Assembly: GCA_902551185.1 (NCBI GenBank)
Contig: CACDCN010000001.1
Location: 3,049-67,048, forward strand
Length of the DNA: 64,000 bases
Source of the DNA: an uncultured SAR86 cluster bacterium
GTDB lineage: Bacteria > Pseudomonadota > Gammaproteobacteria > Magnimaribacterales > D2472
Reading direction: 5' to 3'
Numbering within the stretch: the first letter of the stretch is position 1; each line of letters begins with the position of its first letter. Shown here piece by piece: positions 38,369-50,887 of the stretch. Made by a program: the position numbers and the translations under genes. The notes beneath the pieces are model-generated. The model made no database searches and was not told where the DNA came from. It worked only from the letters and a program-made list of their open reading frames with translations.

Positions 38369-38970
38369 AAGTTTTCAGGGTGTCTTGGTGTAAAAGAACG
38401 GAAATAATCTTTTAAGTCTTTTAAGTCCTTCTCTCTCTTACCGCTTAGCCTAAAGAATTCTCCAAGTAATATTTCTTTCTTTGCAAAATCTAAAGAAACT
38501 GGAATAATTTTTGCATTTATTTCTTCTGCTATCCTTAGGAATCCTGTTTTCCATTCTGCAACCTTTGATCGGGTTCCTTCTGGAGCCATTCCAATTAATG
38601 AGATCTCTATATTCTTAATTTTTTTAATTGCGTCTCCTATTGCTCCGCCTGGGTTTGCTCTATTTACAGGAATACCGCCCATATACTTTAAAAAAGCCCC
38701 TAAACCAAAATATCTAAATATTGTATGCTTTCCAAAAAAAGAAATTTTTGCATCTAGTCCTGCTAAAGCCGCCATTCCAAGAATGCCATCCCAGTTTGAT
38801 GTATGTGGGGCCACAACTATAACTATCTTTTGATTCTTATGCTCTTCTTTAATTGAACCTGTTACTTTCCAACCCAATGATGATAGAACAAATCTCCCAA
38901 GCCATTGAACTGACTTAGGTCTATTTGCCCTAAAACTCTTTGCTACTTGTGAATTTGAAACGCTTGTCAT
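38365..38970 (-). CDS. 1-acyl-sn-glycerol-3-phosphate acyltransferase family protein
   Basis: 201 aa with the HX4D motif (APHTSNWDG) and PEGTRS. Confidence 0.8.
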   Translation of the reverse strand: MTSVSNSQVAKSFRANRPKSVQWLGRFVLSSLGWKVTGSIKEEHKNQKIVIVVAPHTSNWDGILGMAALAGLDAKISFFGKHTIFRYFGLGAFLKYMGGIPVNRANPGGAIGDAIKKIKNIEISLIGMAPEGTRSKVAEWKTGFLRIAEEINAKIIPVSLDFAKKEILLGEFFRLSGKREKDLKDLKDYFRSFTPRHPENF

Positions 38971-38980
38971 AATAATAATG

Positions 38981-39670
38981 TCATCTTGAATTCATTTTAT
39001 CTTTTATAAAATAAGGTAAATATATTAAGTAGCATACGATAACTGCAAGTAAATATATATCAATCATATGATATGGGGCTTCACGCATCCATTCTGTTAC
39101 GTTAAATCCTGGTGGTTTTTCAAACACATACCAGTAATTAGCAGGAGGTCCTAATAGATAATTTATCGGATACATCAGAAGCAGCAAAATTGATAGGAAT
39201 ATTAATATTCTATGGACATCTTTTAATTGAGGTCTTTGATCCTCAACAATCATTGCATATGTAACGCCCAATAAGATCATAGAGTGCCCTATCATGTGTC
39301 TTAAATAATCAATATGTGGGAATGAATATAGAACGTCTGGGGTTAATATAGCCATTCCAGCTCCAGATATGCCTGCAAAATAAGCAAATAAAAAGAACTC
39401 CTTTTTTTTTGTTATAAAATAAAGAATTATTGATGCAGAAGAAAAATCACAAAGATGCAGCGGCAAGCCTAGCCTCCAGTCATCCATAATACCTTCTCTA
39501 TAAAAATCCATACCTTGATTAATTAGAATTAATGAAATGATTGTCATTATTAAAACTTGTTTCGGAGCATCATTTTTATTAACAAAAAATCTAGGTAAAA
39601 AAACAATAATAAAAATACATAACAAGGTAATTAAGATATGAGATGGACTTGAAAGGTTAAAATCTATCAT
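38981..39670 (-). CDS. integral membrane protein (YwaF/TMEM164-like)
   Basis: 229 aa with 7 TM helices and an LPLHLCD motif resembling the TIGR02206-type family. The family call is from memory. Confidence 0.45.
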   Translation of the reverse strand: MIDFNLSSPSHILITLLCIFIIVFLPRFFVNKNDAPKQVLIMTIISLILINQGMDFYREGIMDDWRLGLPLHLCDFSSASIILYFITKKKEFFLFAYFAGISGAGMAILTPDVLYSFPHIDYLRHMIGHSMILLGVTYAMIVEDQRPQLKDVHRILIFLSILLLLMYPINYLLGPPANYWYVFEKPPGFNVTEWMREAPYHMIDIYLLAVIVCYLIYLPYFIKDKMNSR

Positions 39671-39687
39671 TGTTAAATAAAAAAAGT

Positions 39688-40698
39688 TTATATATATACT
39701 TGGCCAAATTTATTATCAATAAAATCATCCCAAGATAGTGACTCCTGTTTTACAAATCCATTTTGAGGTATTTTCCCATTTAAAAACATTTCTAGAGAAC
39801 TACATACCCCTGATGCTGTTGTTAATTGAATAGCACTAAACTTTTCATCTCCATATATTTTTCTTAAATAAGTCTTTTCCTGAAGAGCTCCTTCTGACAT
39901 ACCAATTACTTTAACAAAGAAAATGATTAAATCGTTTTTAGTCCGTGGTACTTCCTTATCAAAAAGCTTTTCAAGCACATCTTTATTTTTCTTTAAATGT
40001 AAGTCATTAAAAAGAAATTTCATATGATTTAAATGTCCAGGATATCTTATTGTCTTATATGAAAGATTCTCTACCTTACCTGCATAGGTTTCACACATGG
40101 TTGCGCATCCCCCACTAGTATTAAAGGCTTCAAAGCTTTCACCCTCAATAACAATTTTCTCAGCTCCTTCAAGAGGCATTGCTTTTATATGCTTCCCCTC
40201 ATAAATTGCATCCGCTTCATTGCAATATTCATTAATCAATCCATTCGTAGACCAGCTTAAGTAATAGCTCATTTCATTTGTTGTAAATCTTGGAAGGGCT
40301 CCTACACGCATCAAAACCTCATTTACGCTATCAAATTCTTCCATCATGCTTGCGGCACATATGTTTATCGCGCCTGGAGCTAGTCCACACTGTGGCATTA
40401 ATATGCTTTTTGATTTTATAGTTTTGATAAAATCTGTGGTTTCTACATCCTCAGTTAAATCAAAATATCCTATACCCTCTTCTGCTGCGACTGTTGCAAT
40501 GTTTTTATTTACTGCAAAAGGTGCAGCTGAAATAACAGCATCAGCACCTTTTAAAAAATCTTTTACTTGCTTAATATCTTTGGCATCAAATCCATCAGCT
40601 ATATCGCCTTGTCTTAAATCATAATCACTTTTTAGCAACTGCTTTAAAGCCCATCCTATATTTCCACTTCCAACTATGGCTATCTTAGCTTTCATCAA
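39688..40698 (-). CDS. saccharopine dehydrogenase family NAD(P)-binding oxidoreductase
   Basis: 336 aa with a Rossmann IAIVGSGNIG motif and MPQCGLAPG. The C-terminal half is typical of the Sacchrp_dh family. It overlaps the upstream ALDH by 14 nt. Confidence 0.72.
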   Translation of the reverse strand: MMKAKIAIVGSGNIGWALKQLLKSDYDLRQGDIADGFDAKDIKQVKDFLKGADAVISAAPFAVNKNIATVAAEEGIGYFDLTEDVETTDFIKTIKSKSILMPQCGLAPGAINICAASMMEEFDSVNEVLMRVGALPRFTTNEMSYYLSWSTNGLINEYCNEADAIYEGKHIKAMPLEGAEKIVIEGESFEAFNTSGGCATMCETYAGKVENLSYKTIRYPGHLNHMKFLFNDLHLKKNKDVLEKLFDKEVPRTKNDLIIFFVKVIGMSEGALQEKTYLRKIYGDEKFSAIQLTTASGVCSSLEMFLNGKIPQNGFVKQESLSWDDFIDNKFGQVYI

Positions 40699-42055
40699 AC
40701 TCCACTCCTTGTGCTAATGGAAGCTCATCTCCGTAATTTACCGTTGCTGTTAATCTTCTCATATAATTTTTCCATGCATCAGAGCCGGATTCTCTGCCAC
40801 CTCCAGTGTCTTTTTCACCACCAAAAGCTCCACCAATTTCTGCGCCACTAGTTCCAATATTTACATTTGCAATGCCACAGTCACTTCCACATTCGCTTAA
40901 AAATAATTCTGATTCTCTCATGTCATTTGTAAATATTGAGCTACTTAGACCCTGTGATACACCATTTTGCATTTGAATTGCTTCATTAATTTCTTTATAT
41001 GTTTTTATATACAATATTGGTGCAAATGTTTCTTGAAGCATCTCATCTTCTACTTTATCAACCAAGACTAGGGCTGGTTTAACATAATATTCATTTGGAT
41101 CCTCAATCTCTAATCTTTCACCACCAATAACTTCAATTTTTTTACCTTTCAAGGATGTAAGTATTGCTTGCATAGATTGATAACTTGCTTCAGATATCAA
41201 TGGTCCGATTTGTGAAGATTCTTTAGTTGGACAGCCAATTATTAATTCTTCAAAACAAGTTTTAAGTCTTGCAACACAATCATCATATATATCTTCATGA
41301 ACAAAAAGTCTTCTCAATGAAGTGCATCTTTGTCCCGTTGTTCCACATGCTGAAAATGCTATGCCTTTTATCGTTAAGTCTAAATCTGCAGATGGACAAA
41401 CAATTGCAGCATTATTTCCACCAAGTTCTAATAGAAGCTTACCTAATCTCTTTGATACAAGAGGTGCTAACTCTTTACCCATTTGAGTGCTTCCAGTAGC
41501 AGAGATTAAAGAAATTGCAGAATCTTCACACATTGCTACTGCTTCTTCTTTTTCTCCTTCTAAGATTAATATCAAATCTGCAAACTCATCGCTTACTTTA
41601 TCCCAAGCATCTTTAATCCCTTTAGCGCAAAGATTTGAGTGAGGGCTTGGTTTCCAAATAACGCTATTCCCACATACTGCTGCTAAACAAAAATTCCATG
41701 CAAAAACGGCCATAGGAAAATTAAAAGCAGTTATACAACCAACTACTCCAAGAGGATGCCATAGTTCTTGCAATCTATGGTTAGGTCGCTCACTTGGCAT
41801 TGTTAAACCATATAATTGCCTGCTTAAGCCAACAGCAAAGTCACACATATCAATTGCTTCTTGAACCTCTCCCTGAGATTCTGTTTGAATCTTTCTTGCC
41901 TCTTTTGTAATTGTTTCAGCTAGATAATCTTTCTTAGCTCTAAGCTCTTCACCAAATTTTCTTATATATTCGCCTCTTTGTGGTGCGGGGATACTCCTCC
42001 ATTTAACAAAAATATCTTTAGATCTTTTTACTATTTCATCATAATTTTTATTCAT
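40685..42055 (-). CDS. aldehyde dehydrogenase, ALDH7 (alpha-aminoadipic-semialdehyde / piperideine-6-carboxylate dehydrogenase)-like
   Basis: LELGGNNAAIV and GTTGQRCTSLRR motifs as in antiquitin-type ALDHs. The ATG at 42055 with its G-rich RBS is preferred over the GTG at 42067. Confidence 0.82.
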   Translation of the reverse strand: MNKNYDEIVKRSKDIFVKWRSIPAPQRGEYIRKFGEELRAKKDYLAETITKEARKIQTESQGEVQEAIDMCDFAVGLSRQLYGLTMPSERPNHRLQELWHPLGVVGCITAFNFPMAVFAWNFCLAAVCGNSVIWKPSPHSNLCAKGIKDAWDKVSDEFADLILILEGEKEEAVAMCEDSAISLISATGSTQMGKELAPLVSKRLGKLLLELGGNNAAIVCPSADLDLTIKGIAFSACGTTGQRCTSLRRLFVHEDIYDDCVARLKTCFEELIIGCPTKESSQIGPLISEASYQSMQAILTSLKGKKIEVIGGERLEIEDPNEYYVKPALVLVDKVEDEMLQETFAPILYIKTYKEINEAIQMQNGVSQGLSSSIFTNDMRESELFLSECGSDCGIANVNIGTSGAEIGGAFGGEKDTGGGRESGSDAWKNYMRRLTATVNYGDELPLAQGVEFDES

Positions 42056-42545
42056 GATAGCCCCCACCCCTAATTATATAGATTTGGAACAAAGCAAACA
42101 CCCCATAAATAAATACATATGCTATATAAAACTTCATAACCAATGGGTCATCAATAGAGTCTACAAATGGATCTTGGGGTGGTAATCTTTTTAGTACTTC
42201 TGCAGTTGTAGGCAACATGCTAAAGAAAACTGTAGACGAAAGAGATAACTCTTTTAAATACGAATTAAATAATCCGAAAATCTTTACATAATCCAAAGTT
42301 ATTGCAAAAAATATTGCTAATATTGTTATAACAGACAATAGATGAGCTATATTAAAACTCCCAGTTGAATTATAAATAAATAGGGATGATCCAGCTGTAA
42401 TGACTGTACTAACCAAATAGAACCTTCCAAGAAACGATTTAATGCTTATAAAGTTTTCTTTTATTAATAGAAATAGGCCAGTCAATATCGCTGCAATGCC
42501 CAAAATAGTATGAAACCATCCTAGAAATGTTATTCCCCCATACAC
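42048..42545 (-). CDS. hypothetical integral membrane protein (5 TM)
   Basis: 165-aa hydrophobic ORF whose 3' end overlaps the ALDH start by 8 nt. No family recognised. Confidence 0.45.
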   Translation of the reverse strand: MYGGITFLGWFHTILGIAAILTGLFLLIKENFISIKSFLGRFYLVSTVITAGSSLFIYNSTGSFNIAHLLSVITILAIFFAITLDYVKIFGLFNSYLKELSLSSTVFFSMLPTTAEVLKRLPPQDPFVDSIDDPLVMKFYIAYVFIYGVFALFQIYIIRGGGYHE

Positions 42546-42574
42546 AAATGATTCTCCTAAAAATATATTAGAGC

Positions 42575-42880
42575 TTAGAAAATCTTATGCTTGCCTTGTA
42601 ATATCTCAATATACATCTTGTGATCACCGATAAAGCTATAAAAAGGATATTTAAATGTTGCAGGTTTATTTTTTTCAATAAAAAAATGTCCGACCCAGGC
42701 AAATGCATATCCTGATATTAGTGCAAATAAAAGATATATAAAATTAAACGATAAGAGAAATTTAATTAAGAAAAAAATTCCTATGCTTGTTCCTATAAAA
42801 TGCATTAACTTGGTGTGTTTATTATTATGCTCTGATAAATAGTATGGGTAAAAATCTTTAAATGTTTTATATCGCTCCAT
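42575..42880 (-). CDS. DUF962 (Mpo1/YGL010w-like) membrane protein
   Basis: FKDFYPYYLSEH ... GHFFIEKNKPATFKYP motifs. The start at 42880 has the RBS AAGGAAG, whereas the track start at 42907 overlaps the upstream gene. Confidence 0.68.
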   Translation of the reverse strand: MERYKTFKDFYPYYLSEHNNKHTKLMHFIGTSIGIFFLIKFLLSFNFIYLLFALISGYAFAWVGHFFIEKNKPATFKYPFYSFIGDHKMYIEILQGKHKIF

Positions 42881-42884
42881 AATT

Positions 42885-43196
42885 TTACTTCCTTGGTGGT
42901 AAGCCACTAATTCTAGTCAAAGTTGTTGTAACGCTTGCTCGTCTGTGTTCTGACAAATCTTGATATTCAGGATCTGAATACCACTCTTCTGCATGCTTGG
43001 CGGTGGGAAAGCTAAATAATATAACTCTTCCCTCCATAGGTTTTTCACCCTCAACATTAACAATATTGTCATCATAAGTTATAAACTCACCACTATGTTT
43101 TTTTAATAATGGAAAAAATCCTTTTTCGTATTCTCTATATCTATCTGCATCATGAATTTGCAGGTTTGCAATCATATAAACTTTTACTTCCTCCAT
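42885..43196 (-). CDS. DUF1330 domain protein
   Basis: 103 aa dimeric alpha/beta-barrel-like protein. Segments YMIANLQIHDADRYREYE and VILFSFPTAKHAEEWYSDPEYQ match the DUF1330 pattern. Confidence 0.72.
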   Translation of the reverse strand: MEEVKVYMIANLQIHDADRYREYEKGFFPLLKKHSGEFITYDDNIVNVEGEKPMEGRVILFSFPTAKHAEEWYSDPEYQDLSEHRRASVTTTLTRISGLPPRK

Positions 43197-43202
43197 TGTT
43201 CT

Positions 43203-43826
43203 TTATTTTGGAGCTGCTTCTGGTTGGAACATATAATAACCCTCAAAAGGAATCATTAAATGAGCATAAGGAGTTCCTTTAAACATTTGATATGGCTCTC
43301 CAGTTGTAAAATCTGTTGTGAAATTTTCAACAGTTTTTGGGTCTTTTGGCATAAGCATTAAATGAGGGCCTGATTCTATAAAATGATTCATTTTCATTGC
43401 ATCCTCTTTATTACCGCCATATAAAGAAGAAACCCTATTGTCTTCTCCTACGTCGCCATGAAGCATCCAAATATATGCATCACGATTCATATCTGGTTTA
43501 GTTCCATTCACATAAGCCTCAACCCATTTAAAACCCTCTATATCTGCGCATGAAGCATTTGTGTCTTGTGCATCCTTATATCCACCCTTGGGCATTGGTC
43601 TTCCTGGAGAGCATGTCCACCCATTAGTTCCCTCTCTTAAAATTTTGCCATCGTAAGTTGCAACTGATGCTTTGTTTCCAATAAAAGATGGTGCTGCAGT
43701 TGATAAAATTTTAATCATCCATTCTTTTGATTTTCCATCATCGCTATGTGAATGGCCGTCATGAGCAACTGATGAAATGCTTACAGTAAATATAATTGCT
43801 ATTAAACTAATAAATCTTATATTCAT
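43203..43826 (-). CDS. hypothetical secreted protein with a His-rich mature N-terminus
   Basis: 207 aa with a signal peptide ending ISSVA, followed by HDGHSHSDDGKS. RBS GAGGAGAAAA. No family recognised. Confidence 0.5.
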   Translation of the reverse strand: MNIRFISLIAIIFTVSISSVAHDGHSHSDDGKSKEWMIKILSTAAPSFIGNKASVATYDGKILREGTNGWTCSPGRPMPKGGYKDAQDTNASCADIEGFKWVEAYVNGTKPDMNRDAYIWMLHGDVGEDNRVSSLYGGNKEDAMKMNHFIESGPHLMLMPKDPKTVENFTTDFTTGEPYQMFKGTPYAHLMIPFEGYYMFQPEAAPK

Positions 43827-43851
43827 TTTTCTCCTCTAATTTAAAAATGTT

Positions 43852-43876
43852 ATTTAATTCTATGAAAGAATTAAAT
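43852..43876 (-). terminator. candidate weak intrinsic terminator after the serine-hydrolase gene
   Basis: A 10-bp AT-rich stem (ATTTAATTCT / AGAATTAAAT) with a 5-nt loop. On the minus strand it is followed by ACATTTTT. Confidence 0.3.
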
Positions 43877-43890
43877 GTAATACAAATAGA

Positions 43891-45099
43891 TTAACTGCTT
43901 TGTTGTGAAACATGTTTGGCTATTGCTCTAAACATGGCTATATGAACTGCCTTGGAATAATCTTTTTCAGATCTAAACCTGTGATTTGAGGATGTCTTTG
44001 CAATTACCACCCCACTAACTGGGTCTACATAAACAAACTGATTGTAAACTCCATGCGCTGTAAAATCTGTCATGGGACTTCCTGGAATCCACCACTGATA
44101 CCCATAACCCCATTCGCTAGATGTAAGATCATCGCCTGCATTAGGCATTAAGTGTGGCGCATCTGGTGTATGAGAATCTATCACCCATTGTTCGGGAACG
44201 ATTTGCTCTCCAAACCAATTGCCATTATTTAAATACAAATAGCCAAATTTTGCATAATCCCTTAAAGTTGCATTTAGACCACCAAGAGCTAAATCCACCC
44301 CAGTTTTATCAGTTATATAGTAAGCATCACTTTCCATGCCTATTTTGCTCCAAATCTTTTTATATAAATATTCTCTCAAAGGCATATCTGTAACTGATTC
44401 TAGGAGGAATCCTAATACTTGGGTATCGATGCTCACATAATGATTATATGTTCCCTGTTCTCTTCCATTTTTGAGAGTCTTTGCAAAATCTATCATGGGC
44501 GAACCTCTAGCAATAGATCTTCCAAATTTATTTATATCAGAATTTGGATCTGCATAATCCTCATTAAAAGCTACCCCTGAAGACATCTGCAGAATATTTT
44601 TAATTTTTACTCCCTCATATCCAGTGTCTTTGAATTCTGGTAAATATTTAGTAACAGGGTCATCAATGCTATCAATTAGGCCCTCATCTAATACAATACC
44701 CATAAGAGCAGAAAGAAAAGATTTAGCAACCGACCAAGAAATATGTTTGCTATTTTTATCATTATCATTCCAATATTCCTCATAGAGCATTTTATTGTCA
44801 TGCAAAATTATTAGTCCATCGGTTTTAAAATGAGCCAGCCCCTCTAAAAGATCATGCTCACTCCCTTCAAATGAATACTTTTCCGGCAGTTCAAAATCAT
44901 CTTTCTCGAATATGTATGGATTGTCTGATGGCTCAATTGGCTCCGAAGCAATAAAAACTTTATCCATATTTATAAAGTTATGTGCAATGGTTTTTTCATT
45001 ATATAAATTTGATAATTTATATACCCTGATCAAATTAGGGGTATAAATAGATATTGAAACAACTAATAAAAGTAATATAAACGTTAAGATCTTACCCAT
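43891..45099 (-). CDS. serine hydrolase, beta-lactamase/transpeptidase-like family
   Basis: 402 aa with an N-terminal membrane anchor and an SxxK motif (SVAKS). Confidence 0.8.
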   Translation of the reverse strand: MGKILTFILLLLVVSISIYTPNLIRVYKLSNLYNEKTIAHNFINMDKVFIASEPIEPSDNPYIFEKDDFELPEKYSFEGSEHDLLEGLAHFKTDGLIILHDNKMLYEEYWNDNDKNSKHISWSVAKSFLSALMGIVLDEGLIDSIDDPVTKYLPEFKDTGYEGVKIKNILQMSSGVAFNEDYADPNSDINKFGRSIARGSPMIDFAKTLKNGREQGTYNHYVSIDTQVLGFLLESVTDMPLREYLYKKIWSKIGMESDAYYITDKTGVDLALGGLNATLRDYAKFGYLYLNNGNWFGEQIVPEQWVIDSHTPDAPHLMPNAGDDLTSSEWGYGYQWWIPGSPMTDFTAHGVYNQFVYVDPVSGVVIAKTSSNHRFRSEKDYSKAVHIAMFRAIAKHVSQQSS

Positions 45100-45140
45100 A
45101 TGAATAATCTATCATAGATAAGGCGTAATATATGAAAAAT

Positions 45141-45500
45141 TTATACCCACTCATCATTTGGAGCGGTCAATTTATCTTCTTTGTCTCCTGTGTTAACCAC
45201 ACCAGATGGCTCAACTAACATAATCTTGGCTTCTTTGTTTGCATATGGTTTATGCTTGATTCCTTTTGGAACAACTATCATTTCTCCTTCATTAATTTGA
45301 ATTGTCTCATCTTCAAACTCAATAAAAATAGTGCCATCTAAGACAATAAATACTTCATCTGTATCGTCGTGTTTATGCCAAATAAAATCATCTTTAATTT
45401 TTACAAGCTTAAATTGATAATCATTCATTTCTGCAATAACTTTTGGAGACCATCTATCATTAAATTTAGTAAATTTAGAACTAAAATTTATTTTTTTCAT
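45141..45500 (-). CDS. cupin-domain protein
   Basis: 119 aa with a cupin motif (HKHDDTDEVFIVLDG ... VVPKGIKH). Confidence 0.75.
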   Translation of the reverse strand: MKKINFSSKFTKFNDRWSPKVIAEMNDYQFKLVKIKDDFIWHKHDDTDEVFIVLDGTIFIEFEDETIQINEGEMIVVPKGIKHKPYANKEAKIMLVEPSGVVNTGDKEDKLTAPNDEWV

Positions 45501-45503
45501 GAC

Positions 45504-45986
45504 CTATTCTCTTAATACCGCAGACCTAGTTCCATCTTCTTCATTTATTATTACATCCATTGGCTTCCATTCTTCATGTCCACAAACTCTTAATAAACAA
45601 CCTTCAACCTTTAGATTGCCATTGTCTAATAAATATAAGTTTGATTTAAAGATTCTCCCTCTGCCTGGATCGTATATCTTGCCTCCTTTTAGCTCTGTCA
45701 AATCTTTATCAACAAATTTGAATTGATCCAGCAAATTAACTCCTACCAAAGGTCTGCTTCTTAGTGATTTATCACGATTATTTTCATCTAATATAGATTT
45801 TGGATCTACTCCCTCATCAACAAATATATGTTCGATTGTTGCGCATAAACTTTGTTCACAATCTTTAACATGGACAATAGATGCAGAAGTTAGCCAATAG
45901 CCTAAGAATCTATTATTGCTTTCAGAAAAAATATTAATTGATAAGAAGGCTAGTATTAATAAATATACGGATTTTCTATAGCCCAT
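45504..45986 (-). CDS. DUF2147-domain exported protein
   Basis: 160 aa with a signal peptide. Contains GGKIYDPGRGRIFKSNLYL ... LKVEGC, typical of DUF2147. Confidence 0.68.
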   Translation of the reverse strand: MGYRKSVYLLILAFLSINIFSESNNRFLGYWLTSASIVHVKDCEQSLCATIEHIFVDEGVDPKSILDENNRDKSLRSRPLVGVNLLDQFKFVDKDLTELKGGKIYDPGRGRIFKSNLYLLDNGNLKVEGCLLRVCGHEEWKPMDVIINEEDGTRSAVLRE

Positions 45987-47007
45987 AAATCCAATCTCTT
46001 ACCATCTCAACTGCTTCTTTGTGGGTTAACGCTCTACCTGATTCTGGCATCATTACTCCAGGATCCATTGACTCCATTCTATATAGTAAGATTGATTCCT
46101 CAGGCTTCCCAGGGACAATAGAGTACTTATATCCTCCGCTGCCTCTTCCTGTTGCAACAGGTTTTTTAAATATTCCTAAATTGATATCTCTTGTTTCATT
46201 TAAATGTAAATATAATCCAGTTGAGTTAGCGTTGCCTGTTGGTGAGTGACAGTGTCCACAATTAACATCTAAGTATGACCTAACTCTATCATTAATATCC
46301 TTAGTTTCATCTGTCCAATCAACTGGAGAAATTAAATCCATAGGGTAATCATCAATAATCTCTCTATTCATCCAATAAACTAATTGGTTAAACTCACCAT
46401 CTTTAAAATCAAATTCTTTATTTATATTTCTTGCTTTGGGGCCTATCGGGCTAATCTTGTCATCTGCATCATGACATTCTTTACATTGATTAACATTGGG
46501 AACTCTATATCGAACTGTTTTTTCTTCCCCCATAAAATCTGTCCATTCCGTATTGATAGTTTTGCCGGCAATTTTTTTATATGCTTCATTTTGTTCTTCA
46601 TTCCATGCATAAGAAACAGCTTCCCATCCGCTTTCTTTTCTTAATAATAATCTGGTTTCAAGAAGTTGCTTGCCTAACTCTGGAGCTCTTTCATCTACTG
46701 GGTAATAAAAAGTTTTTATAAGAGCAGAGCCTGTGGGGAAATCAAAAACCCAATTCTCTACATATTTTGCTTTCTTATTGCCAGGAACATAAACCCATCT
46801 CTGTTTATATGAATAATCAGAAAAAAGTGTTGATATTAATTCATATGGGATGACTTTGTCGTTAGGTAATTGAGCAGAATCATCTAAAAAAAATTCAAAC
46901 TCAGAAAGCTTCTCTGGAAATGATTCTGCTAATATCAAGTTGTCATTTACAGAATGAAGATTGCTGCAATACAAGAAAATAAAAAAATAAGAAAATATTT
47001 TTTTCAT
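45976..47007 (-). CDS. exported diheme c-type cytochrome (SO_2930/HNE_0200-like family)
   Basis: 343 aa with a signal peptide and two CxxCH haem-binding motifs (CKECH, CGHCH). It is paired with a parallel beta-helix protein. Confidence 0.75.
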   Translation of the reverse strand: MKKIFSYFFIFLYCSNLHSVNDNLILAESFPEKLSEFEFFLDDSAQLPNDKVIPYELISTLFSDYSYKQRWVYVPGNKKAKYVENWVFDFPTGSALIKTFYYPVDERAPELGKQLLETRLLLRKESGWEAVSYAWNEEQNEAYKKIAGKTINTEWTDFMGEEKTVRYRVPNVNQCKECHDADDKISPIGPKARNINKEFDFKDGEFNQLVYWMNREIIDDYPMDLISPVDWTDETKDINDRVRSYLDVNCGHCHSPTGNANSTGLYLHLNETRDINLGIFKKPVATGRGSGGYKYSIVPGKPEESILLYRMESMDPGVMMPESGRALTHKEAVEMVRDWIYGL

Positions 47008-47012
47008 TTGTG

Positions 47013-48239
47013 TTAAAAGGTCTTGATACTGATTGACTCTAATGGTTTTATTTTCCCTTCAAATTCTTTTATATCAGTCCTAATAGGACTTGAGAAACCA
47101 AGCATATATTTTATAGGACTAATTGTTAAAAAACTTGTAGTATCCTCTTCATTTAATACCAGCCTCTCTTCTTTTGGTTGCCCTAATATCATCTGTGATA
47201 AAGGAACAACTCCATCCCAAAAAATGTCTGGCATATCTCCAGCACTTATTTCATATAAGGCCTTTGCTAAATCTCCGGTTTCTAAGTCAGGGTCAAAACC
47301 ACTTGGGCCATAGGTATTATTATGTACTTGGATATTTTTAGGGTGTGGATAATAATTTTTATCGTCCGTTTCATCGCTATATGAAACTATAGAAAGATTA
47401 ACTGTTCCATTGCCACTCATTACATTGTTGAATATCTCAACATCAGAGTTGGCCATTACAATAATTCCAGTGCCTCTAGGAACTTCGCCTACAATATTTC
47501 CTTCAGGTGCAAAATTATCGGTATCATTATCAATTGCTTGATTATCAAATACTCTAATATGATGTCCGCCCTGTTGAGGTAAATCTGGAAGATCAAAAAC
47601 TAAAATTCCTGCGGTATTATGGGATGCTAAATTATCATATACATCTGCATAATAAGAATTCTCAATTTCTATTCCTGCAACATTGTATTGAGCCACACTG
47701 TTTCTAACAATTATATTTTTTGATTGTCCAACATATATGCCAGCATCTGATGCTCCAATCGCAACACATCCATCAATTAAAATATCTTCTGATTCAACTG
47801 GATAAAATCCATATGCTCCATTGGTGCTTTTCGGACCACCAGTCCATTCAGTTTTTAAGTTAAGCATACTGATGCCTTTAGACCCAATAACTTTCAAAGC
47901 ATCTCCTTTAGCATCCATAATTGAAAAATTTTCTAATATTACTTGATTGGATGTAACCAAAAGGCCCTGAGCCCCTGATTTCTGATTTTTAAAATCAAGT
48001 ATTGTCTTATCCATTCCCTCTCCTCTAACAGTTACTTTACTTACATCTAGAGAGAGCCCATCTTCAAAACTATAGTATCCAGACTTTATTGTTAGAATAT
48101 CTCCTTCTTGCAAAAGGATCATTGCCTCTTGCAATCTTTCATGTTCGTTTGGGCCTGGTTCAATAAATATTTCTTTTGCATTTATATTTAAAAGCAAAAC
48201 TGAAATTATTGAAATGCAAAAAATATTAAATTTTTTCAT
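47013..48239 (-). CDS. exported parallel beta-helix repeat protein (NosD/CASH-like)
   Basis: 408 aa with a signal peptide. Repeated beta-helix rungs are visible (GIYVGQSKNIIVRNS, AGIEIENSYYADVYDN, AGILVFD...). Confidence 0.75.
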   Translation of the reverse strand: MKKFNIFCISIISVLLLNINAKEIFIEPGPNEHERLQEAMILLQEGDILTIKSGYYSFEDGLSLDVSKVTVRGEGMDKTILDFKNQKSGAQGLLVTSNQVILENFSIMDAKGDALKVIGSKGISMLNLKTEWTGGPKSTNGAYGFYPVESEDILIDGCVAIGASDAGIYVGQSKNIIVRNSVAQYNVAGIEIENSYYADVYDNLASHNTAGILVFDLPDLPQQGGHHIRVFDNQAIDNDTDNFAPEGNIVGEVPRGTGIIVMANSDVEIFNNVMSGNGTVNLSIVSYSDETDDKNYYPHPKNIQVHNNTYGPSGFDPDLETGDLAKALYEISAGDMPDIFWDGVVPLSQMILGQPKEERLVLNEEDTTSFLTISPIKYMLGFSSPIRTDIKEFEGKIKPLESISIKTF

Positions 48240-48281
48240 GAGTTTTATTGTATTAAAAAAAGCATGGGAGCAAAAGCTATA

Positions 48282-48749
48282 CTAGGCACCATCAGAAACC
48301 TCTATATAAATTTTCTCTGAAGTAATTGGTTGATAGTTATTGCTTGATCCAATCGGCTTAACCGGTCTGTGTTCATAATCACCCAAAACTAATTGAAGAG
48401 AATATTTTCCTGGAGGCAATGATAGCTCAGCCTCTGTTTGCCCTCCGCCAAAATGCAAAATGTTTTTTCCGTATGGTATTGGCATATCTTTTGAATTATT
48501 TACATCATATTCATCATTAATTATTAGATGATGATGTCCGGATACCATACAATCTTTAATATTATCTACAATAACCCCCGCTGGGTTTATTGATATATTT
48601 TTTGATCCAAATACAACCTTAAATTTCGATCCTTCTGATATAAACCCATTGCTTGGATACTCGAAATAAAGTTTGGCTTTTTCGCATGAACTTATATCAG
48701 CTTTCATAGCAAAAGAAAAAGCCATAACGATTAAAAGAAGAAGTTTCAT
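48282..48749 (-). CDS. DUF4399-domain exported protein
   Basis: 155 aa with a signal peptide and a GHHHLIIND motif typical of DUF4399. It abuts the FMO stop. Confidence 0.62.
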   Translation of the reverse strand: MKLLLLIVMAFSFAMKADISSCEKAKLYFEYPSNGFISEGSKFKVVFGSKNISINPAGVIVDNIKDCMVSGHHHLIINDEYDVNNSKDMPIPYGKNILHFGGGQTEAELSLPPGKYSLQLVLGDYEHRPVKPIGSSNNYQPITSEKIYIEVSDGA

Positions 48750-50051
48750 TTATACCTCCAATGCTGGTTTGCAACTTTTTAATTCTTTTTTAAGTCTTTC
48801 TCTAAAGGCTGGGTCATCCACTGTTATGGTGTGTCTTGGGGTGTCTAACTGAGGGACATCTGGGTTTGCCATTTCTTTAGCAAGCAAATCTTTTATAGGT
48901 TTTTTTGGCTTCCATTGTCCTAATAAATGTCTTGCAGCAAGTTTTGACTGAAGCTCCGCACCAGGCCATATACACCCTAGTGGCTGGAATAAGCCAATAA
49001 AATATATGTTATTTATATCTGCAGGTATCATTCTATGTAATAAAGGCACCATACCTTCTTCATAATTTATAAAATCTTTATCAAAAAAAGAATGCTTTAT
49101 TCTAAATCCGGTACAAGCTATAACCACATCAAATTCTTCTTCATGACCATCAATAAAAGTAACTTTATTATTATTAAATTCTTTTATGTCTTTTTGTGGA
49201 CTTACCTTGCCATGTCGTACTGCATAATACAGCTCAGAGTTGACAGTTGGATGAGTTGCAAATATAGGTTGAGTAGGTTTTTGTAACCCAATGTCTTCAT
49301 TTTTGCCCTGGAATCTTTCAAGCATAAATCTTATGAAGGGAGCCCTAAAAATTCTTGGAACCCATCTATTTTTCATTGCATATAAGTCTGTTGGTAGTCC
49401 GTACATAAATTTTGGAATTAAGTAATAGCCCCTTCTCCAACTTATTGAGATTGATTTTGCAACTCTTGCTGTCTCAACAGCTACATCACAAGCTGAATTG
49501 CCTCCCCCAATAACAAGCACCCTTTTGTCTTTAAATGGTTTTGCTGACTTAAAATCATGCGAATGAATAAATTCGCCTGTAAATTTCCCTGGGTAATCAG
49601 GGTACCTTGGCTCATGATGATGACCATTGCATACTACCAATGCATCATATATGTCTGTTCTGACCTGATCTGATTCTAATTCCTTCCATGTAATTTCCCA
49701 TTTATCAGATTCTATTTGCTTGCAATGTTGCACCTCTGTGCCAAATTTAATTAACTTTCTAATATCAAAGTGATCGGTGTAGTTATTGAAATATTCCAAT
49801 AAATCTTTGTGAGAGGGATAGTCAGCTGCGTTTTCAGGTAATGGGTAATCCTCATAATAAGAAGTATATTTTGAACTTATAATGTGCGTTGTCTCAAAAA
49901 CACTTGAATGTCCTGATGGATCATTAAACCTCCAATTTCCTCCTACTCCTTGGCATCTCTCAAACGCCGTCACCTCAAAACCAAGATCTGAAAAATTTTT
50001 TATTGCAGTTATCCCACAAGGTCCTGCTCCTATTATTGCTACTTTATTCAT
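48750..50051 (-). CDS. flavin-containing monooxygenase (class B FMO)
   Basis: 433 aa with GAGPCG (FAD), the FMO motif FTGEFIHSHDF and GGGNSACD (NADPH). Confidence 0.85.
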   Translation of the reverse strand: MNKVAIIGAGPCGITAIKNFSDLGFEVTAFERCQGVGGNWRFNDPSGHSSVFETTHIISSKYTSYYEDYPLPENAADYPSHKDLLEYFNNYTDHFDIRKLIKFGTEVQHCKQIESDKWEITWKELESDQVRTDIYDALVVCNGHHHEPRYPDYPGKFTGEFIHSHDFKSAKPFKDKRVLVIGGGNSACDVAVETARVAKSISISWRRGYYLIPKFMYGLPTDLYAMKNRWVPRIFRAPFIRFMLERFQGKNEDIGLQKPTQPIFATHPTVNSELYYAVRHGKVSPQKDIKEFNNNKVTFIDGHEEEFDVVIACTGFRIKHSFFDKDFINYEEGMVPLLHRMIPADINNIYFIGLFQPLGCIWPGAELQSKLAARHLLGQWKPKKPIKDLLAKEMANPDVPQLDTPRHTITVDDPAFRERLKKELKSCKPALEV

Positions 50052-50887
50052 AACTTATGTTTTGTTTTTGGAGGGCCAAAGAAAAAATACATTGCTTCAT
50101 TTATATTTTTTGCCTCCATCATATCTTTAAATATCTGTTGCCATCCCATAAATGTAATTTTAGTTGGATTAAACGTATTAACATTATTAACTAATCCATA
50201 TTTTACCGATTCTTTTTCAGGCTCAAAAGTGCCAAACATACGATCCCATATTATTAAAAGATTGCCATAATTTTTATCTATATATTGGCTGTTTGCTCCA
50301 TGATGAACTCTATGATGCGAAGGAGTGTTAAAAATCCACTCAAGTGGTCCCAACTTACCAACAATTTGAGTATGGCCAACTATTCCCCACAAGGTGCTTA
50401 TTACTCCTGCGACTGCAATTATTGTTGGATCAAATCCCAACAATGGCATAACCATGAAAAATGGAACTTTGGATAATGGTCCAAACCAAGCCTGCCTAAA
50501 AGACACAGCAAAATTCATTTCTTCACTTGAGTGATGGCTCATATGAATCGCCCATAGGAAATTAACTCTATGAGAAATACGATGGTAAATATAAAAAACT
50601 AAATCTATCATCACAAAAGTTGCAACCCATATCATCCAAACTGGCATCAGGTCTGATAAATTAAATAACTTAAATTTGAATAAATAAAAATGAAGAGCAA
50701 GGGTTGCGCCTTTTAAAGCAAAAACCATAAGAATATTTCCAGTTAATAACCCAATTGTGCATAAACTATCATTCTTCTTGTATAGGTTCTTGTTATATGC
50801 ACTAGAGAACATCACCTCAATTAAGATCATAGCCAATACTATCGGGGCGCCAATTGCGTAAACCTGATTAATGGTTAATTCAGTCAT
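50048..50887 (-). CDS. fatty acid hydroxylase / sterol desaturase family membrane di-iron oxygenase
   Basis: 279 aa with histidine boxes HRISH, HMSHH and HHRVHH. 4-nt overlap with the FMO gene. Confidence 0.83.
   Translation of the reverse strand: MTELTINQVYAIGAPIVLAMILIEVMFSSAYNKNLYKKNDSLCTIGLLTGNILMVFALKGATLALHFYLFKFKLFNLSDLMPVWMIWVATFVMIDLVFYIYHRISHRVNFLWAIHMSHHSSEEMNFAVSFRQAWFGPLSKVPFFMVMPLLGFDPTIIAVAGVISTLWGIVGHTQIVGKLGPLEWIFNTPSHHRVHHGANSQYIDKNYGNLLIIWDRMFGTFEPEKESVKYGLVNNVNTFNPTKITFMGWQQIFKDMMEAKNINEAMYFFFGPPKTKHKL

What the first reader, a model, noticed from the sequence alone, without database searches (positions are those of the whole stretch)
45141..48239. Exported cluster of uncharacterised proteins around a diheme cytochrome c (beta-helix, diheme cytochrome, DUF2147, cupin)
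Seen in sequence: four tightly packed minus-strand genes, with gaps or overlaps of 3-11 nt. They encode a signal-peptide parallel beta-helix protein, a signal-peptide protein with two CxxCH motifs (CKECH, CGHCH), a signal-peptide DUF2147 protein and a cupin. Established knowledge, with the family names from memory: the beta-helix plus SO_2930/HNE_0200-type diheme cytochrome pair recurs in Proteobacteria and Bacteroidetes without an assigned function, and NosD-like beta-helix proteins take part in periplasmic metal-centre assembly. Inference: this is a periplasmic redox or oxidative module with an unknown substrate. DUF4399 and a His-rich secreted ORFan lie nearby.
Basis: partly seen in the sequence, partly recalled or inferred. 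Interest (0 to 1): 0.55.

Follow-up and report, generated by a model that had tools for sequence, protein, structure and literature searches.

The report
Conserved beta-helix plus dihaem cytochrome pair

Summary
The four minus-strand ORFs and their family names are confirmed. Only the first two form a conserved unit. The beta-helix gene (TIGR03805) lies directly upstream of the dihaem cytochrome (TIGR03806), or is fused to it, in 71 of 79 testable loci from five phyla. Fourteen of 150 family representatives are full-length natural fusions. DUF2147 (6/81 loci) and the cupin (3/81, no signal peptide) are SAR86-specific neighbours. Their tight spacing is simply the baseline of a 96%-coding genome. 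Neither protein has a solved relative by sequence, and the literature gives no function. The cytochrome has one probable His/Met relay haem and one haem with no conserved sixth ligand. That second haem follows a beta-sheet domain whose best structural and profile matches are cytochrome P460/c'-beta, and a near-invariant Lys aligns with the P460 cross-link lysine. This link is weak, at roughly even odds. The beta-helix resembles polyuronate lyases and epimerases in fold only, and it is not a NosD family member. Most likely this is a two-subunit exported haem oxidoreductase with an unknown substrate. It is a typical member of a catalogued pair, and the untested P460-like haem is its most interesting aspect.

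The parts
47013..48239 (-). Exported parallel beta-helix protein (408 aa), TIGR03805 family; core subunit 1
   Evidence: TIGR03805 411 bits (residues 36-344), Pfam Beta_helix and NosD repeats. AF2 model pLDDT 93, pTM 0.91. Foldseek neighbours are polyuronate lyases and epimerases at 10-15% identity.
47655..47750 (-). Invariant acidic cluster on two consecutive beta-helix coils: SDAGIYVGQS (D165, Y169, Q172, S173) and NVAGIEIENS (E191, E193, N194). Candidate binding or active site (inferred)
   Evidence: Invariant in 55 and in 44 diverse orthologues; coordinates verified. The helix core has no conserved Cys or His.
45976..47007 (-). Exported dihaem c-type cytochrome (343 aa), TIGR03806 / SO2930 family; core subunit 2
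   Evidence: TIGR03806 367 bits. AF2 model pLDDT 94.2, pTM 0.90. No PDB relative by sequence.
46492..46926 (-). N-terminal beta-sheet domain of the cytochrome (residues 28-172). Candidate P460/c'-beta-like fold, with near-invariant K98 inside FPTGSALIKTF (46708-46740)
   Evidence: Foldseek's best hits are cyt P460/c'-beta (prob 0.80-0.85, E 0.012-0.03). PF16694 matches 25/65 members and 3/33 with CxxCH removed. hhalign E 3-5e-4 with K98 placed on the P460 cross-link Lys; permutation controls.
46471..46485 (-). Haem 1 attachment motif CKECH (C175, C178, H179); no conserved sixth ligand, so possibly an open-coordination haem
   Evidence: Invariant in 65 sequences. No further invariant His, and the only invariant Met is M320.
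46246..46260 (-). Haem 2 attachment motif CGHCH (C250, C253, H254); probable His/Met relay haem
   Evidence: Invariant. The PSCyt1/class-I-like region 290-321 ends on M320.
46045..46053 (-). M319-M320-P321: invariant Met-Pro, the probable axial Met of haem 2
   Evidence: M320 and P321 are invariant in 65 sequences, 66 residues after H254; coordinates.
45504..45986 (-). DUF2147 protein (160 aa, signal peptide); adjacent gene, not part of the conserved core
   Evidence: PF09917 72 bits. Near the pair in 6/81 loci. Described as lipocalin-like in bioRxiv 10.1101/2025.07.29.667474.
45141..45500 (-). Cupin_2 protein (119 aa, no signal peptide, cytoplasmic); adjacent gene, not part of the core
   Evidence: PF07883. 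Closest solved structure is 3D82, E 4.9e-41, a structure deposited without an assigned function. Near the pair in only 3/81 loci, all SAR86.
48282..48749 (-). DUF4399 protein (155 aa, signal peptide, SGHHH motif); upstream neighbour, SAR86-specific
   Evidence: PF14347 81 bits. With the pair in only 3/81 loci.

Best explanation
The real unit is a two-gene, sometimes single-polypeptide, exported haem enzyme made of a parallel beta-helix subunit and a dihaem c-type cytochrome subunit that act as one complex. In the cytochrome, haem 2 (C250/C253/H254 with M320) is a class-I-like His/Met electron relay. Haem 1 (C175/C178/H179) follows a beta-sheet domain and has no conserved sixth ligand, so it is probably an open-coordination, ligand-binding or catalytic haem of the P460/c'-beta type. 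Electrons pass between haem 1 and respiratory c-type cytochromes through haem 2. The beta-helix supplies a binding surface, or caps the haem pocket, through its invariant Asp/Glu/Tyr cluster. The substrate is unknown. Shown: the conserved pairing, the fusions and the conserved haem sites. Inferred: the haem ligation, the P460-like fold, the route of electron flow and the role of the beta-helix. DUF2147 and the cupin are lineage-specific neighbours.
For: Pairing: the beta-helix is directly upstream on the same strand, or fused, in 71 of 79 testable loci across Gamma- and Alphaproteobacteria, Bacteroidota, Planctomycetota and Binatia. Starting from the beta-helix instead, the cytochrome follows in 5 of 7 loci. 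Fusions: 5 of 5 tested 785-812-aa proteins carry TIGR03805 then TIGR03806, and 14 full-length fusions occur among 150 representatives, in the same order as the genes. Redox role: both CxxCH motifs are invariant, M320-P321 is invariant, and there is no third invariant His. Some homologues add extra class-I cytochrome c or TIGR02603 haem domains. P460-like domain: Foldseek's top hits are P460/c'-beta. PF16694 matches 25/65 members, best E 5.4e-5, covering residues 67-181 in the window protein. It is the only family hit more than once when the CxxCH is removed. hhalign gives E 3-5e-4, with K98 on the cross-link Lys and CxxCH on CxxCH. None of 150 column-permuted or 150 block-permuted controls reached the real score. 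The identity of the cross-link Lys is confirmed in PMC11928373 and by the chain numbering.
Against: There is no experimental data for any family member. The P460 link is weak. Foldseek E-values exceed 1e-3, with TM only 0.32-0.39. The window protein scores 12.7 bits on PF16694 against a cut-off of 27. PDB profile searches do not reach P460. Plain HMM scores fall to background once CxxCH is masked, and many of those hits map to the second haem motif. hhalign probability is only 22-40%, and one block-permuted control reached 31.7 against a real score of 31.7-32.2. I could not see model coordinates, so haem ligation and the subunit interface are untested. About 8% of cytochrome loci (6 of 79) lack a nearby beta-helix, and 2 of 7 beta-helix loci lack the cytochrome.
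Confidence: 0.5

Rival explanations
1. The beta-helix is a carbohydrate-active enzyme (a lyase, epimerase or hydrolase acting on an acidic glycan), and the cytochrome only serves it as an electron partner or has a separate role.
For: All top Foldseek neighbours of the beta-helix model are polyuronate-active enzymes: RbmB, PL6 alginate lyases, AlgE4/AlgG epimerases and GH28 (E down to 2.6e-7). The invariant D165/E191/E193 cluster resembles a Ca2+/carboxylate site.
Against: Identity is 10-15%, and the resemblance is the generic right-handed beta-helix fold. No profile places the protein in a characterised lyase or hydrolase family. From my memory of PL6 residue spacing, the positions expected to hold the catalytic Lys and Arg hold A198 and D219 (sequence). 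There is no invariant His for an AlgE/AlgG-type site. No TonB-receptor or SusC/D-type neighbours recur in 81 loci, which is unusual for Bacteroidota glycan enzymes. Lyases and epimerases need no cytochrome, yet the two proteins are fused in many taxa.
Confidence: 0.15
2. The beta-helix is a NosD-like assembly or maturation factor for the cytochrome's cofactor. Alternatively, and in reverse, the dihaem protein acts like MauG to generate a protein-derived cofactor in the beta-helix.
For: The Pfam NosD repeat model matches at 36.7 bits. The inferred pattern of one open haem plus one relay haem resembles the dihaem peroxidase/MauG logic. W132, Y143, Y146 and Y169 are invariant in the beta-helix.
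Against: The NosD family model scores 30.8 bits against a cut-off of 300. NosD is absent from the top 50 structural neighbours. No NosF/NosY/NosL/NosZ genes lie in the window or recur in 81 loci. CCP_MauG matches only 5/65 members, at E 0.067 or worse. Stable 1:1 fusions fit a holoenzyme better than a chaperone-client pair.
Confidence: 0.1
3. One reading: all four genes (beta-helix, cytochrome, DUF2147, cupin) form one functional periplasmic oxidative module.
For: The four genes are co-directional and tightly spaced in the window. The same order is kept in L001, L002 and, with insertions, L004. DUF2147 also flanks the pair in Sphingomonas, Sphingorhabdus and a Chitinophagaceae MAG.
Against: Tight spacing is the genome-wide norm, and the genes sit in a 16-gene co-directional run. 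The cupin accompanies the pair in only 3/81 loci and has no signal peptide. DUF2147 does so in 6/81. Other SAR86 lineages keep only the pair, with unrelated flanks.
Confidence: 0.1
4. The pair is a non-catalytic, surface- or membrane-anchored electron-transfer or adhesion module, with the beta-helix as a scaffold or adhesin and the cytochrome as a pure electron carrier.
For: About half of the single-domain cytochromes (51/104) carry a lipobox-like motif under a loose pattern. PMC4837345 lists the Shewanella members SO_2930/SO_2931 as predicted outer-membrane or extracellular proteins. Extra cytochrome c domains are fused in some homologues.
Against: Most hosts are aerobic heterotrophs, including streamlined SAR86, with no known extracellular respiration. 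The deeply conserved polar cluster in the beta-helix and the missing sixth ligand of haem 1 point to chemistry rather than simple relay.
Confidence: 0.1

Closest known systems
TIGR03805 (beta_helix_1) / TIGR03806 (SO2930 or HNE_0200 family dihaem cytochrome) conserved gene pair, as catalogued in TIGRFAMs/NCBIfam
   Same: Both window proteins score above the curated cut-offs. They are adjacent in the usual order, with the beta-helix upstream, as in 71/79 other loci.
   Different: Nothing structural. This is a SAR86 member. The catalogue entry carries no function, and the neighbours in this window (DUF4399, DUF2147, cupin) are not part of the catalogued pair.
Cytochrome P460 / cytochrome c'-beta superfamily (PF16694; e.g. 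PDB 2JE2, 6HIU, 7EAD)
   Same: A beta-sheet domain followed by a C-terminal CxxCH, and no conserved sixth ligand. These are the best Foldseek and Pfam matches. The near-invariant K98 aligns with the haem cross-link Lys70 that defines P460 as opposed to c'-beta.
   Different: The score is below Pfam's cut-off and TM-scores are low. Here the domain is one part of a 343-aa dihaem protein with an added His/Met haem and an obligate beta-helix partner. Known P460 and c'-beta proteins are small single-haem homodimers, and the 2025 review mentions no fused or dihaem members. About 47 residues separate the conserved Trp from the CxxCH here, against 24 in P460.
Bacterial dihaem cytochrome c peroxidase / MauG (PF03150)
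   Same: Working logic only: one haem with an open site plus one six-coordinate relay haem that exchanges electrons with small c-type cytochromes (inferred, together with general knowledge of these enzymes).
   Different: No sequence or fold relationship was detected (5/65 members at E 0.067 or worse; absent from the Foldseek list). The CxxCH spacing is 75 residues here, against roughly 145 in CCPs (the latter from memory).
NosD, periplasmic beta-helix component of the NosDFY machinery for nitrous oxide reductase maturation
   Same: A right-handed parallel beta-helix with CASH-type repeats, exported (Pfam NosD 36.7 bits).
   Different: The family model scores 30.8 bits against a cut-off of 300. 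There is no ABC partner NosF/NosY, no NosL and no NosZ nearby, and NosD is not among the top 50 structural neighbours.
Beta-helix polyuronate enzymes: RbmB lyase (9OZL), PL6 alginate lyases, AlgE4/AlgG mannuronan C5-epimerases, GH28
   Same: The overall fold (Foldseek E 2.6e-7 to 1e-4, TM up to 0.58-0.65), and an acidic cluster on successive coils.
   Different: Identity is 10-15%. The characteristic catalytic residues are not evident. None of these enzymes pairs with a cytochrome, and there is no polysaccharide-utilisation-locus context.

Membership tests
TIGR03806 SO2930-family dihaem c-type cytochrome | Score above the curated cut-off over the full model | tested here: met
   367 bits against a cut-off of 313.3; residues 31-341 match profile positions 2-312 of 314.
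TIGR03806 SO2930-family dihaem c-type cytochrome | Two conserved CxxCH haem-attachment motifs | tested here: met
   CKECH at 175-179 and CGHCH at 250-254; the Cys and His are invariant in 65 sequences.
TIGR03806 SO2930-family dihaem c-type cytochrome | Encoded next to a TIGR03805 beta-helix gene | tested here: met
   A 5-nt gap in the window; 71/79 testable loci elsewhere.
TIGR03805 beta_helix_1 | Score above the curated cut-off | tested here: met
   411.3 bits against a cut-off of 141.5; residues 36-344 cover the whole 314-position model.
NosD (TIGR04247) | Score above the family cut-off | tested here: not met
   30.8 bits against a cut-off of 300.
NosD (TIGR04247) | Genomic association with nosF/nosY ABC transporter genes, nosL and nosZ | tested here: not met
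   None in the window ORFs scanned. No recurrent ABC-2 or NosL cluster in 81 loci; the ABC genes present are MacAB-like or unrelated.
Cytochrome P460 / c'-beta superfamily (PF16694) | Pfam score above the gathering threshold | tested here: not met
   Window protein 12.7 bits (E 0.17) against a cut-off of 27. Best family member E 5.4e-5; 25/65 members at E of 1 or less.
Cytochrome P460 / c'-beta superfamily (PF16694) | Beta-sheet fold with the CxxCH at its C-terminal end | tested here: inconclusive
   Foldseek's top hits are 6HIU, 9HRK, 7EAD and 2JE2, but with E 0.012-0.7 and TM 0.26-0.39 normalised to the target. hhalign gives 128 co-linear columns including CxxCH, E 3e-4, probability 40%. The permutation controls support the match; the masked-HMM control does not.
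Cytochrome P460 (as opposed to c'-beta) | Lys at the haem cross-link position (Lys70 in NeP460, Lys106 in NsP460; Met or Phe in c'-beta, per PMC11928373) | tested here: inconclusive
   K98, present in at least 90% of the family (Asn in 2 of 33), aligns with the invariant P460 Lys in every hhalign run. This depends on a low-probability alignment.
Cytochrome P460 (as opposed to c'-beta) | Covalent Lys-haem bond and five-coordinate high-spin haem with a red-shifted Soret band | not testable with these tools
   Needs purified protein, UV-vis/EPR spectroscopy and peptide mass spectrometry. The only indirect support is the absence of a conserved sixth ligand.
PL6 polysaccharide lyases | Ca2+ site (Asn, Glu-x-Glu) plus a catalytic Lys five residues after the second Glu and an Arg about 21 residues later (residue rule from memory) | tested here: inconclusive
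   E191-x-E193 is present, but A198 and D219 occupy the expected Lys and Arg positions. No structural superposition was possible.
Bacterial dihaem cytochrome c peroxidase / MauG (PF03150) | Profile match | tested here: not met
   5/65 members, best E 0.067.
DUF2147 (PF09917) and Cupin_2 (PF07883), neighbouring genes | Pfam score above the cut-off | tested here: met
   72.1 bits against 27, and 46.4 bits against 27.2.

The most novel reading that the evidence does not exclude
SO2930-family cytochromes contain a true P460-type haem (five-coordinate and cross-linked to the near-invariant Lys98) joined to a His/Met relay haem and docked on a beta-helix partner. That would make this widespread pair, present in SAR86, SAR92, Caulobacterales, Sphingomonadales, Cytophagales, Saprospiraceae and Planctomycetota, an unrecognised hydroxylamine/NO-transforming enzyme of aerobic heterotrophs, and a possible source or sink of N2O or NO in oxic waters and soils.
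Probability: 0.12. Interest if true: 0.85.

Novelty: new member of a known kind. Interest (0 to 1): 0.5.

Why it matters
The pair occurs in at least 598 species representatives. About 6,300 clusters at 50% identity match the cytochrome (E up to 0.001), and it is carried by SAR86, one of the most abundant heterotroph lineages of the surface ocean. Yet no member has been studied. The fusions show that the two proteins work together, which turns a vague 'conserved hypothetical' pair into a defined target for expression. If the first haem is an open or P460-type site, the protein would extend a cofactor so far known only from small single-haem proteins (and, with a different cross-link, from HAO) to common heterotrophs, with possible consequences for hydroxylamine, NO and N2O budgets. 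If it is not, the pair is still an abundant exported haem enzyme with no characterised analogue. For annotation, the practical result is that DUF2147, the cupin and DUF4399 should not be given a function from this neighbourhood.

Tried and rejected
- **PDB by sequence:** single-sequence and profile searches found no relative for the cytochrome, its N-domain, the beta-helix, DUF2147 or DUF4399. The one apparently significant hit, a c555 trimer at 7e-8, is a threefold repeat of a weak match to the class-I CxxCH...GP motif.
- **Literature:** searches for SO_2930/SO_2931, the TIGR accessions, and beta-helix plus cytochrome found nothing functional.
- **Rfam:** no RNA families in the window.
- **Promoters and terminators:** fewer sites than in shuffled sequence, so uninformative.
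- **P460 HMM against 150 family members:** the signal was mostly the CxxCH motif, and often the wrong one.
- **Extended landmarks:** E117 on Glu96 and W128 on Trp line up only with relaxed gap penalties, so I do not rely on them.
- **NosDFY-like arrangement:** rejected.
- **Larger conserved operon:** de novo clustering of all flanking ORFs found nothing beyond the pair in more than about 17% of loci; the top clusters were antisense shadow ORFs, generic SDRs, and LytTR/histidine-kinase genes.
- **Tight spacing as operon evidence:** rejected.
- **Limits:** no complex was modelled and no coordinates could be inspected, so the subunit interface was not examined.


Full report
**Observation.** Spacing is a 5-nt gap, an 11-nt overlap and a 3-nt gap. 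The family names, recalled from memory, are correct. The 408-aa protein scores 411 bits on TIGR03805 (cut-off 141.5). The 343-aa protein scores 367 bits on TIGR03806, the 'SO2930 family diheme c-type cytochrome' (cut-off 313.3). The 160-aa protein is DUF2147 and the 119-aa protein is a Cupin_2. CKECH and CGHCH are present, and this is the only CxxCH-bearing ORF of at least 90 aa in the window. A simple hydropathy check finds signal-peptide-like N-termini on the beta-helix, cytochrome, DUF2147, DUF4399, beta-lactamase-fold and 207-aa proteins. The cupin has none, so the cluster is not uniformly exported.

**Organism and packing.** The closest genomes are all SAR86-cluster assemblies, at up to 81% identity for the cytochrome. 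The window has about 32% G+C and is 96% coding. Its median co-directional gap is 6 nt, and 70% of such gaps are 15 nt or less. The four genes sit inside a 16-gene co-directional run, 38365-50887. Tight spacing is therefore the baseline here and says nothing about operon membership. Promoter and terminator scans were uninformative, and no Rfam family matched.

**What is conserved.**
- A scan of one genome per species found at least 598 loci encoding the cytochrome, and I analysed the best 80 plus L001.
- The beta-helix gene lies directly upstream on the same strand, or is fused, in 71 loci. In one locus it is separated by a single inserted gene, and in one it lies 6 kb upstream.
- Two loci are cut off at the contig end. 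Six have no beta-helix within about 10 kb, or within 2.4 kb in the short L058.
- The taxa span SAR86 and SAR92, Caulobacterales, Sphingomonadales, Kordiimonadales, Rhizobiaceae, Cytophagales, Saprospiraceae, Chitinophagales, Planctomycetota and Binatia.
- In the reverse direction, starting from beta-helix proteins chosen without reference to the cytochrome, the cytochrome follows immediately in 5 of 7 loci. It is absent within 6 kb in Runella rosea and in one ENA contig.
- De novo clustering of all flanking ORFs found nothing else in more than about 17% of loci.
- DUF2147 lies near the pair in 6 of 81 loci: three close SAR86 genomes plus Sphingomonas, Sphingorhabdus and a Chitinophagaceae MAG. 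The cupin, DUF4399 and the 207-aa protein occur only in those three SAR86 genomes.
- Other SAR86 lineages keep only the pair, with unrelated flanks.

**Fusions.** In the 50%-identity representative library, 6,263 proteins match the cytochrome at E up to 0.001. All five 785-812-aa representatives I tested carry TIGR03805 at the N-terminus and TIGR03806 at the C-terminus. An HMM scan finds 14 full-length fusions (737-812 aa) and 6 fragments among the 150 listed, always in the same order as the genes. Two of the genome loci are also fused. This is strong evidence that the two proteins act as one unit. Other architectures add class-I cytochrome c or TIGR02603 haem domains at either end. That pattern is what one expects of an enzyme that exchanges electrons with soluble c-type cytochromes.

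**The cytochrome.**
- In 65 diverse sequences the invariant residues are both CxxCH motifs plus E117, W128, Y133, P170, G278, S305 and M320-P321. There is no third invariant His, and only one invariant Met.
- M320 lies 66 residues after H254, in a PSCyt1/class-I-like stretch. Haem 2 is therefore probably His/Met, and haem 1 has no conserved sixth ligand.
- The AF2 model is confident (pLDDT 94.2, pTM 0.90). It shows a beta-rich domain at about residues 30-170, directly before the first CxxCH.
- Foldseek finds no PDB match at E of 1e-3 or better. The best hits, and nine of the top 25, are cytochrome P460 or c'-beta (probability 0.80-0.85 for the top two, about 105 columns, TM 0.26-0.39 normalised to the target).
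- Pfam's Cytochrome_P460 model matches 25 of 65 members at E of 1 or less (best 5.4e-5). In the window protein it covers residues 67-181 at E 0.17.

**Testing the P460 link.**
- My recollection of the N. europaea P460 sequence matched 2JE2 exactly. From it I built a 25-sequence P460 profile.
- hhalign against the N-domain profile gives E 4.7e-4 and probability 33%. With extended alignment it gives 128 co-linear columns, E 3e-4 and probability 40%.
- In every run, FPxGxxLIK98 falls on FRDGTVTVK. That Lys is the haem cross-link residue, Lys70 in NeP460 and Lys106 in NsP460, and it is Met or Phe in c'-beta proteins (PMC11928373; chain numbering).
- Controls: column-permuted profiles score 14.0 +/- 2.8 (0 of 150 reach 32). 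Eight-column block permutations score 20.8 +/- 3.4, with a maximum of 31.7 (0 of 150 reach 32).
- Against the link: PDB profile searches do not reach P460. Plain HMM-versus-sequence scores fall to background when CxxCH is masked, and many of those hits map to the second haem motif.
- With the CxxCH cut off, PF16694 is still the only family hit by more than one member, but that is only 3 of 33, best E 0.011.
- The E117/Glu96 and W128/Trp correspondences appear only with relaxed gap penalties.
- I put the P460/c'-beta-fold assignment at roughly even odds, and a true Lys cross-link well below that.

**The beta-helix.** The AF2 model is confident (pLDDT 93, pTM 0.91). Its structural neighbours are RbmB, PL6 alginate lyases, AlgE4/AlgG epimerases and GH28 enzymes, at 10-15% identity. 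NosD is not in the top 50, and the NosD family model scores 30.8 bits against a cut-off of 300. The invariant residues cluster on consecutive coils as SDAGIYVGQS, NVAGIEIENS and NTGGILVFDLP, together with W132, Y143, Y146 and Y169. There is no conserved Cys or His in the helix core. By my memory of PL6 residue spacing, the positions expected to hold the catalytic Lys and Arg hold Ala and Asp. No polysaccharide-utilisation genes recur nearby. Every source name is generic.

**Accessory genes.** DUF2147 is described as lipocalin-like, on the basis of the HP1028 structure, in bioRxiv 10.1101/2025.07.29.667474. The cupin is close to 3D82, a structure deposited without an assigned function (E 4.9e-41). 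Together with the FA_hydroxylase, FMO-like and beta-lactamase-fold genes, this neighbourhood looks like SAR86-specific metabolism of hydrophobic compounds, not part of the cytochrome unit.

**Interpretation.** The most likely reading (confidence 0.5) is a two-subunit exported haem oxidoreductase. Haem 2 relays electrons to or from respiratory cytochromes. Haem 1 is an open, reactive site. The beta-helix provides the substrate-binding or pocket-capping surface. The pairing, the fusions and the conserved haem sites are shown. The haem ligation, the fold assignment, the direction of electron flow and the substrate are inferred.

**Rivals.**
- A glycan-active beta-helix enzyme served by the cytochrome (0.15).
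- A NosD-like or MauG-like maturation relationship (0.1).
- A non-catalytic, surface- or membrane-anchored electron-transfer module (0.1).

**Novelty.** The pair is already catalogued in TIGRFAMs/NCBIfam as a conserved pair of unknown function, and this is a typical SAR86 member. The new points are the quantified adjacency, the natural fusions, the exclusion of DUF2147 and the cupin, and the tentative P460-like domain with a conserved Lys at the cross-link position.

Noticed in passing
window 43203-43826 (-): A 207-aa secreted protein with no Pfam or NCBIfam match. It is not truly His-rich (7 His), but it has an HDGHSH cluster at the predicted mature N-terminus, which could be a metal-binding tag. 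Homologues were seen only in the three closest SAR86 loci (L001, L002, L004).
   Followed up: partly
window 48282-48749 (-): A DUF4399 protein with an SGHHH motif lies 42 nt upstream of the beta-helix gene. It accompanies the pair only in L001, L002 and L004. It has no solved relative by sequence.
   Followed up: partly
L001 11052-11609: A close SAR86 relative (83% identical cytochrome) has an extra 185-aa ORF with no Pfam hit between the cytochrome and DUF2147. In the window those two genes overlap by 11 nt, so this ORF is absent.
   Followed up: no
L052 6546-7724: In a Caulobacteraceae MAG, an orthologue of the window's beta-lactamase-fold protein (43891-45099; E 4.7e-50) sits directly upstream of the pair on the same strand. 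Weaker beta-lactamase-fold and FA_hydroxylase neighbours also occur in Aquirufa (L038, L046).
   Followed up: partly
L065 11057-12958; L086 9580-11200; L087 1-577: Periplasmic sugar-dehydrogenase-type genes lie near some family members. In L065, a PQQ-dehydrogenase-like 634-aa ORF (judged from its N-terminal sequence by eye, not a profile match) directly follows a cytochrome that has no beta-helix. GMC oxidoreductase, with or without a Gluconate_2-dh3 subunit, lies within 5 kb in L086 and L087.
   Followed up: no
L082 (Runella rosea), L084, L058 (Runella sp.): The pair can be split. Runella rosea and one ENA contig have the beta-helix with no cytochrome within 6 kb, while a Runella MAG has the cytochrome with no beta-helix in the 2.4 kb available upstream. 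I did not determine whether both genes exist elsewhere in the same genome.
   Followed up: partly
L084 5088-5690 and L088 4159-4761: A divergent TetR-family regulator (TetR_N plus TetR_C_37) lies immediately upstream of the beta-helix gene in two unrelated loci.
   Followed up: no
L007 11073-14063 and L008 11039-14020: In another SAR86 lineage the pair is followed by three genes: an adaptor-like ORF, an ABC ATPase and a permease-like ORF. The layout looks MacAB-like from the ATPase motifs and gene sizes, but I ran no profile search on them.
   Followed up: no
window 48750-50051 (-): A flavin monooxygenase (FMO-like, 247 bits) that scores far below the trimethylamine monooxygenase cut-off (130.8 against 675), so it is not a Tmm equivalog. 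Its stop codon overlaps the FA_hydroxylase gene upstream by 4 nt, and it abuts DUF4399 downstream.
   Followed up: no
window 38365-50887 (-): A 16-gene co-directional run in a window that is 96% coding with a median co-directional gap of 6 nt. Inferring operons from spacing is unreliable anywhere in this genome.
   Followed up: yes
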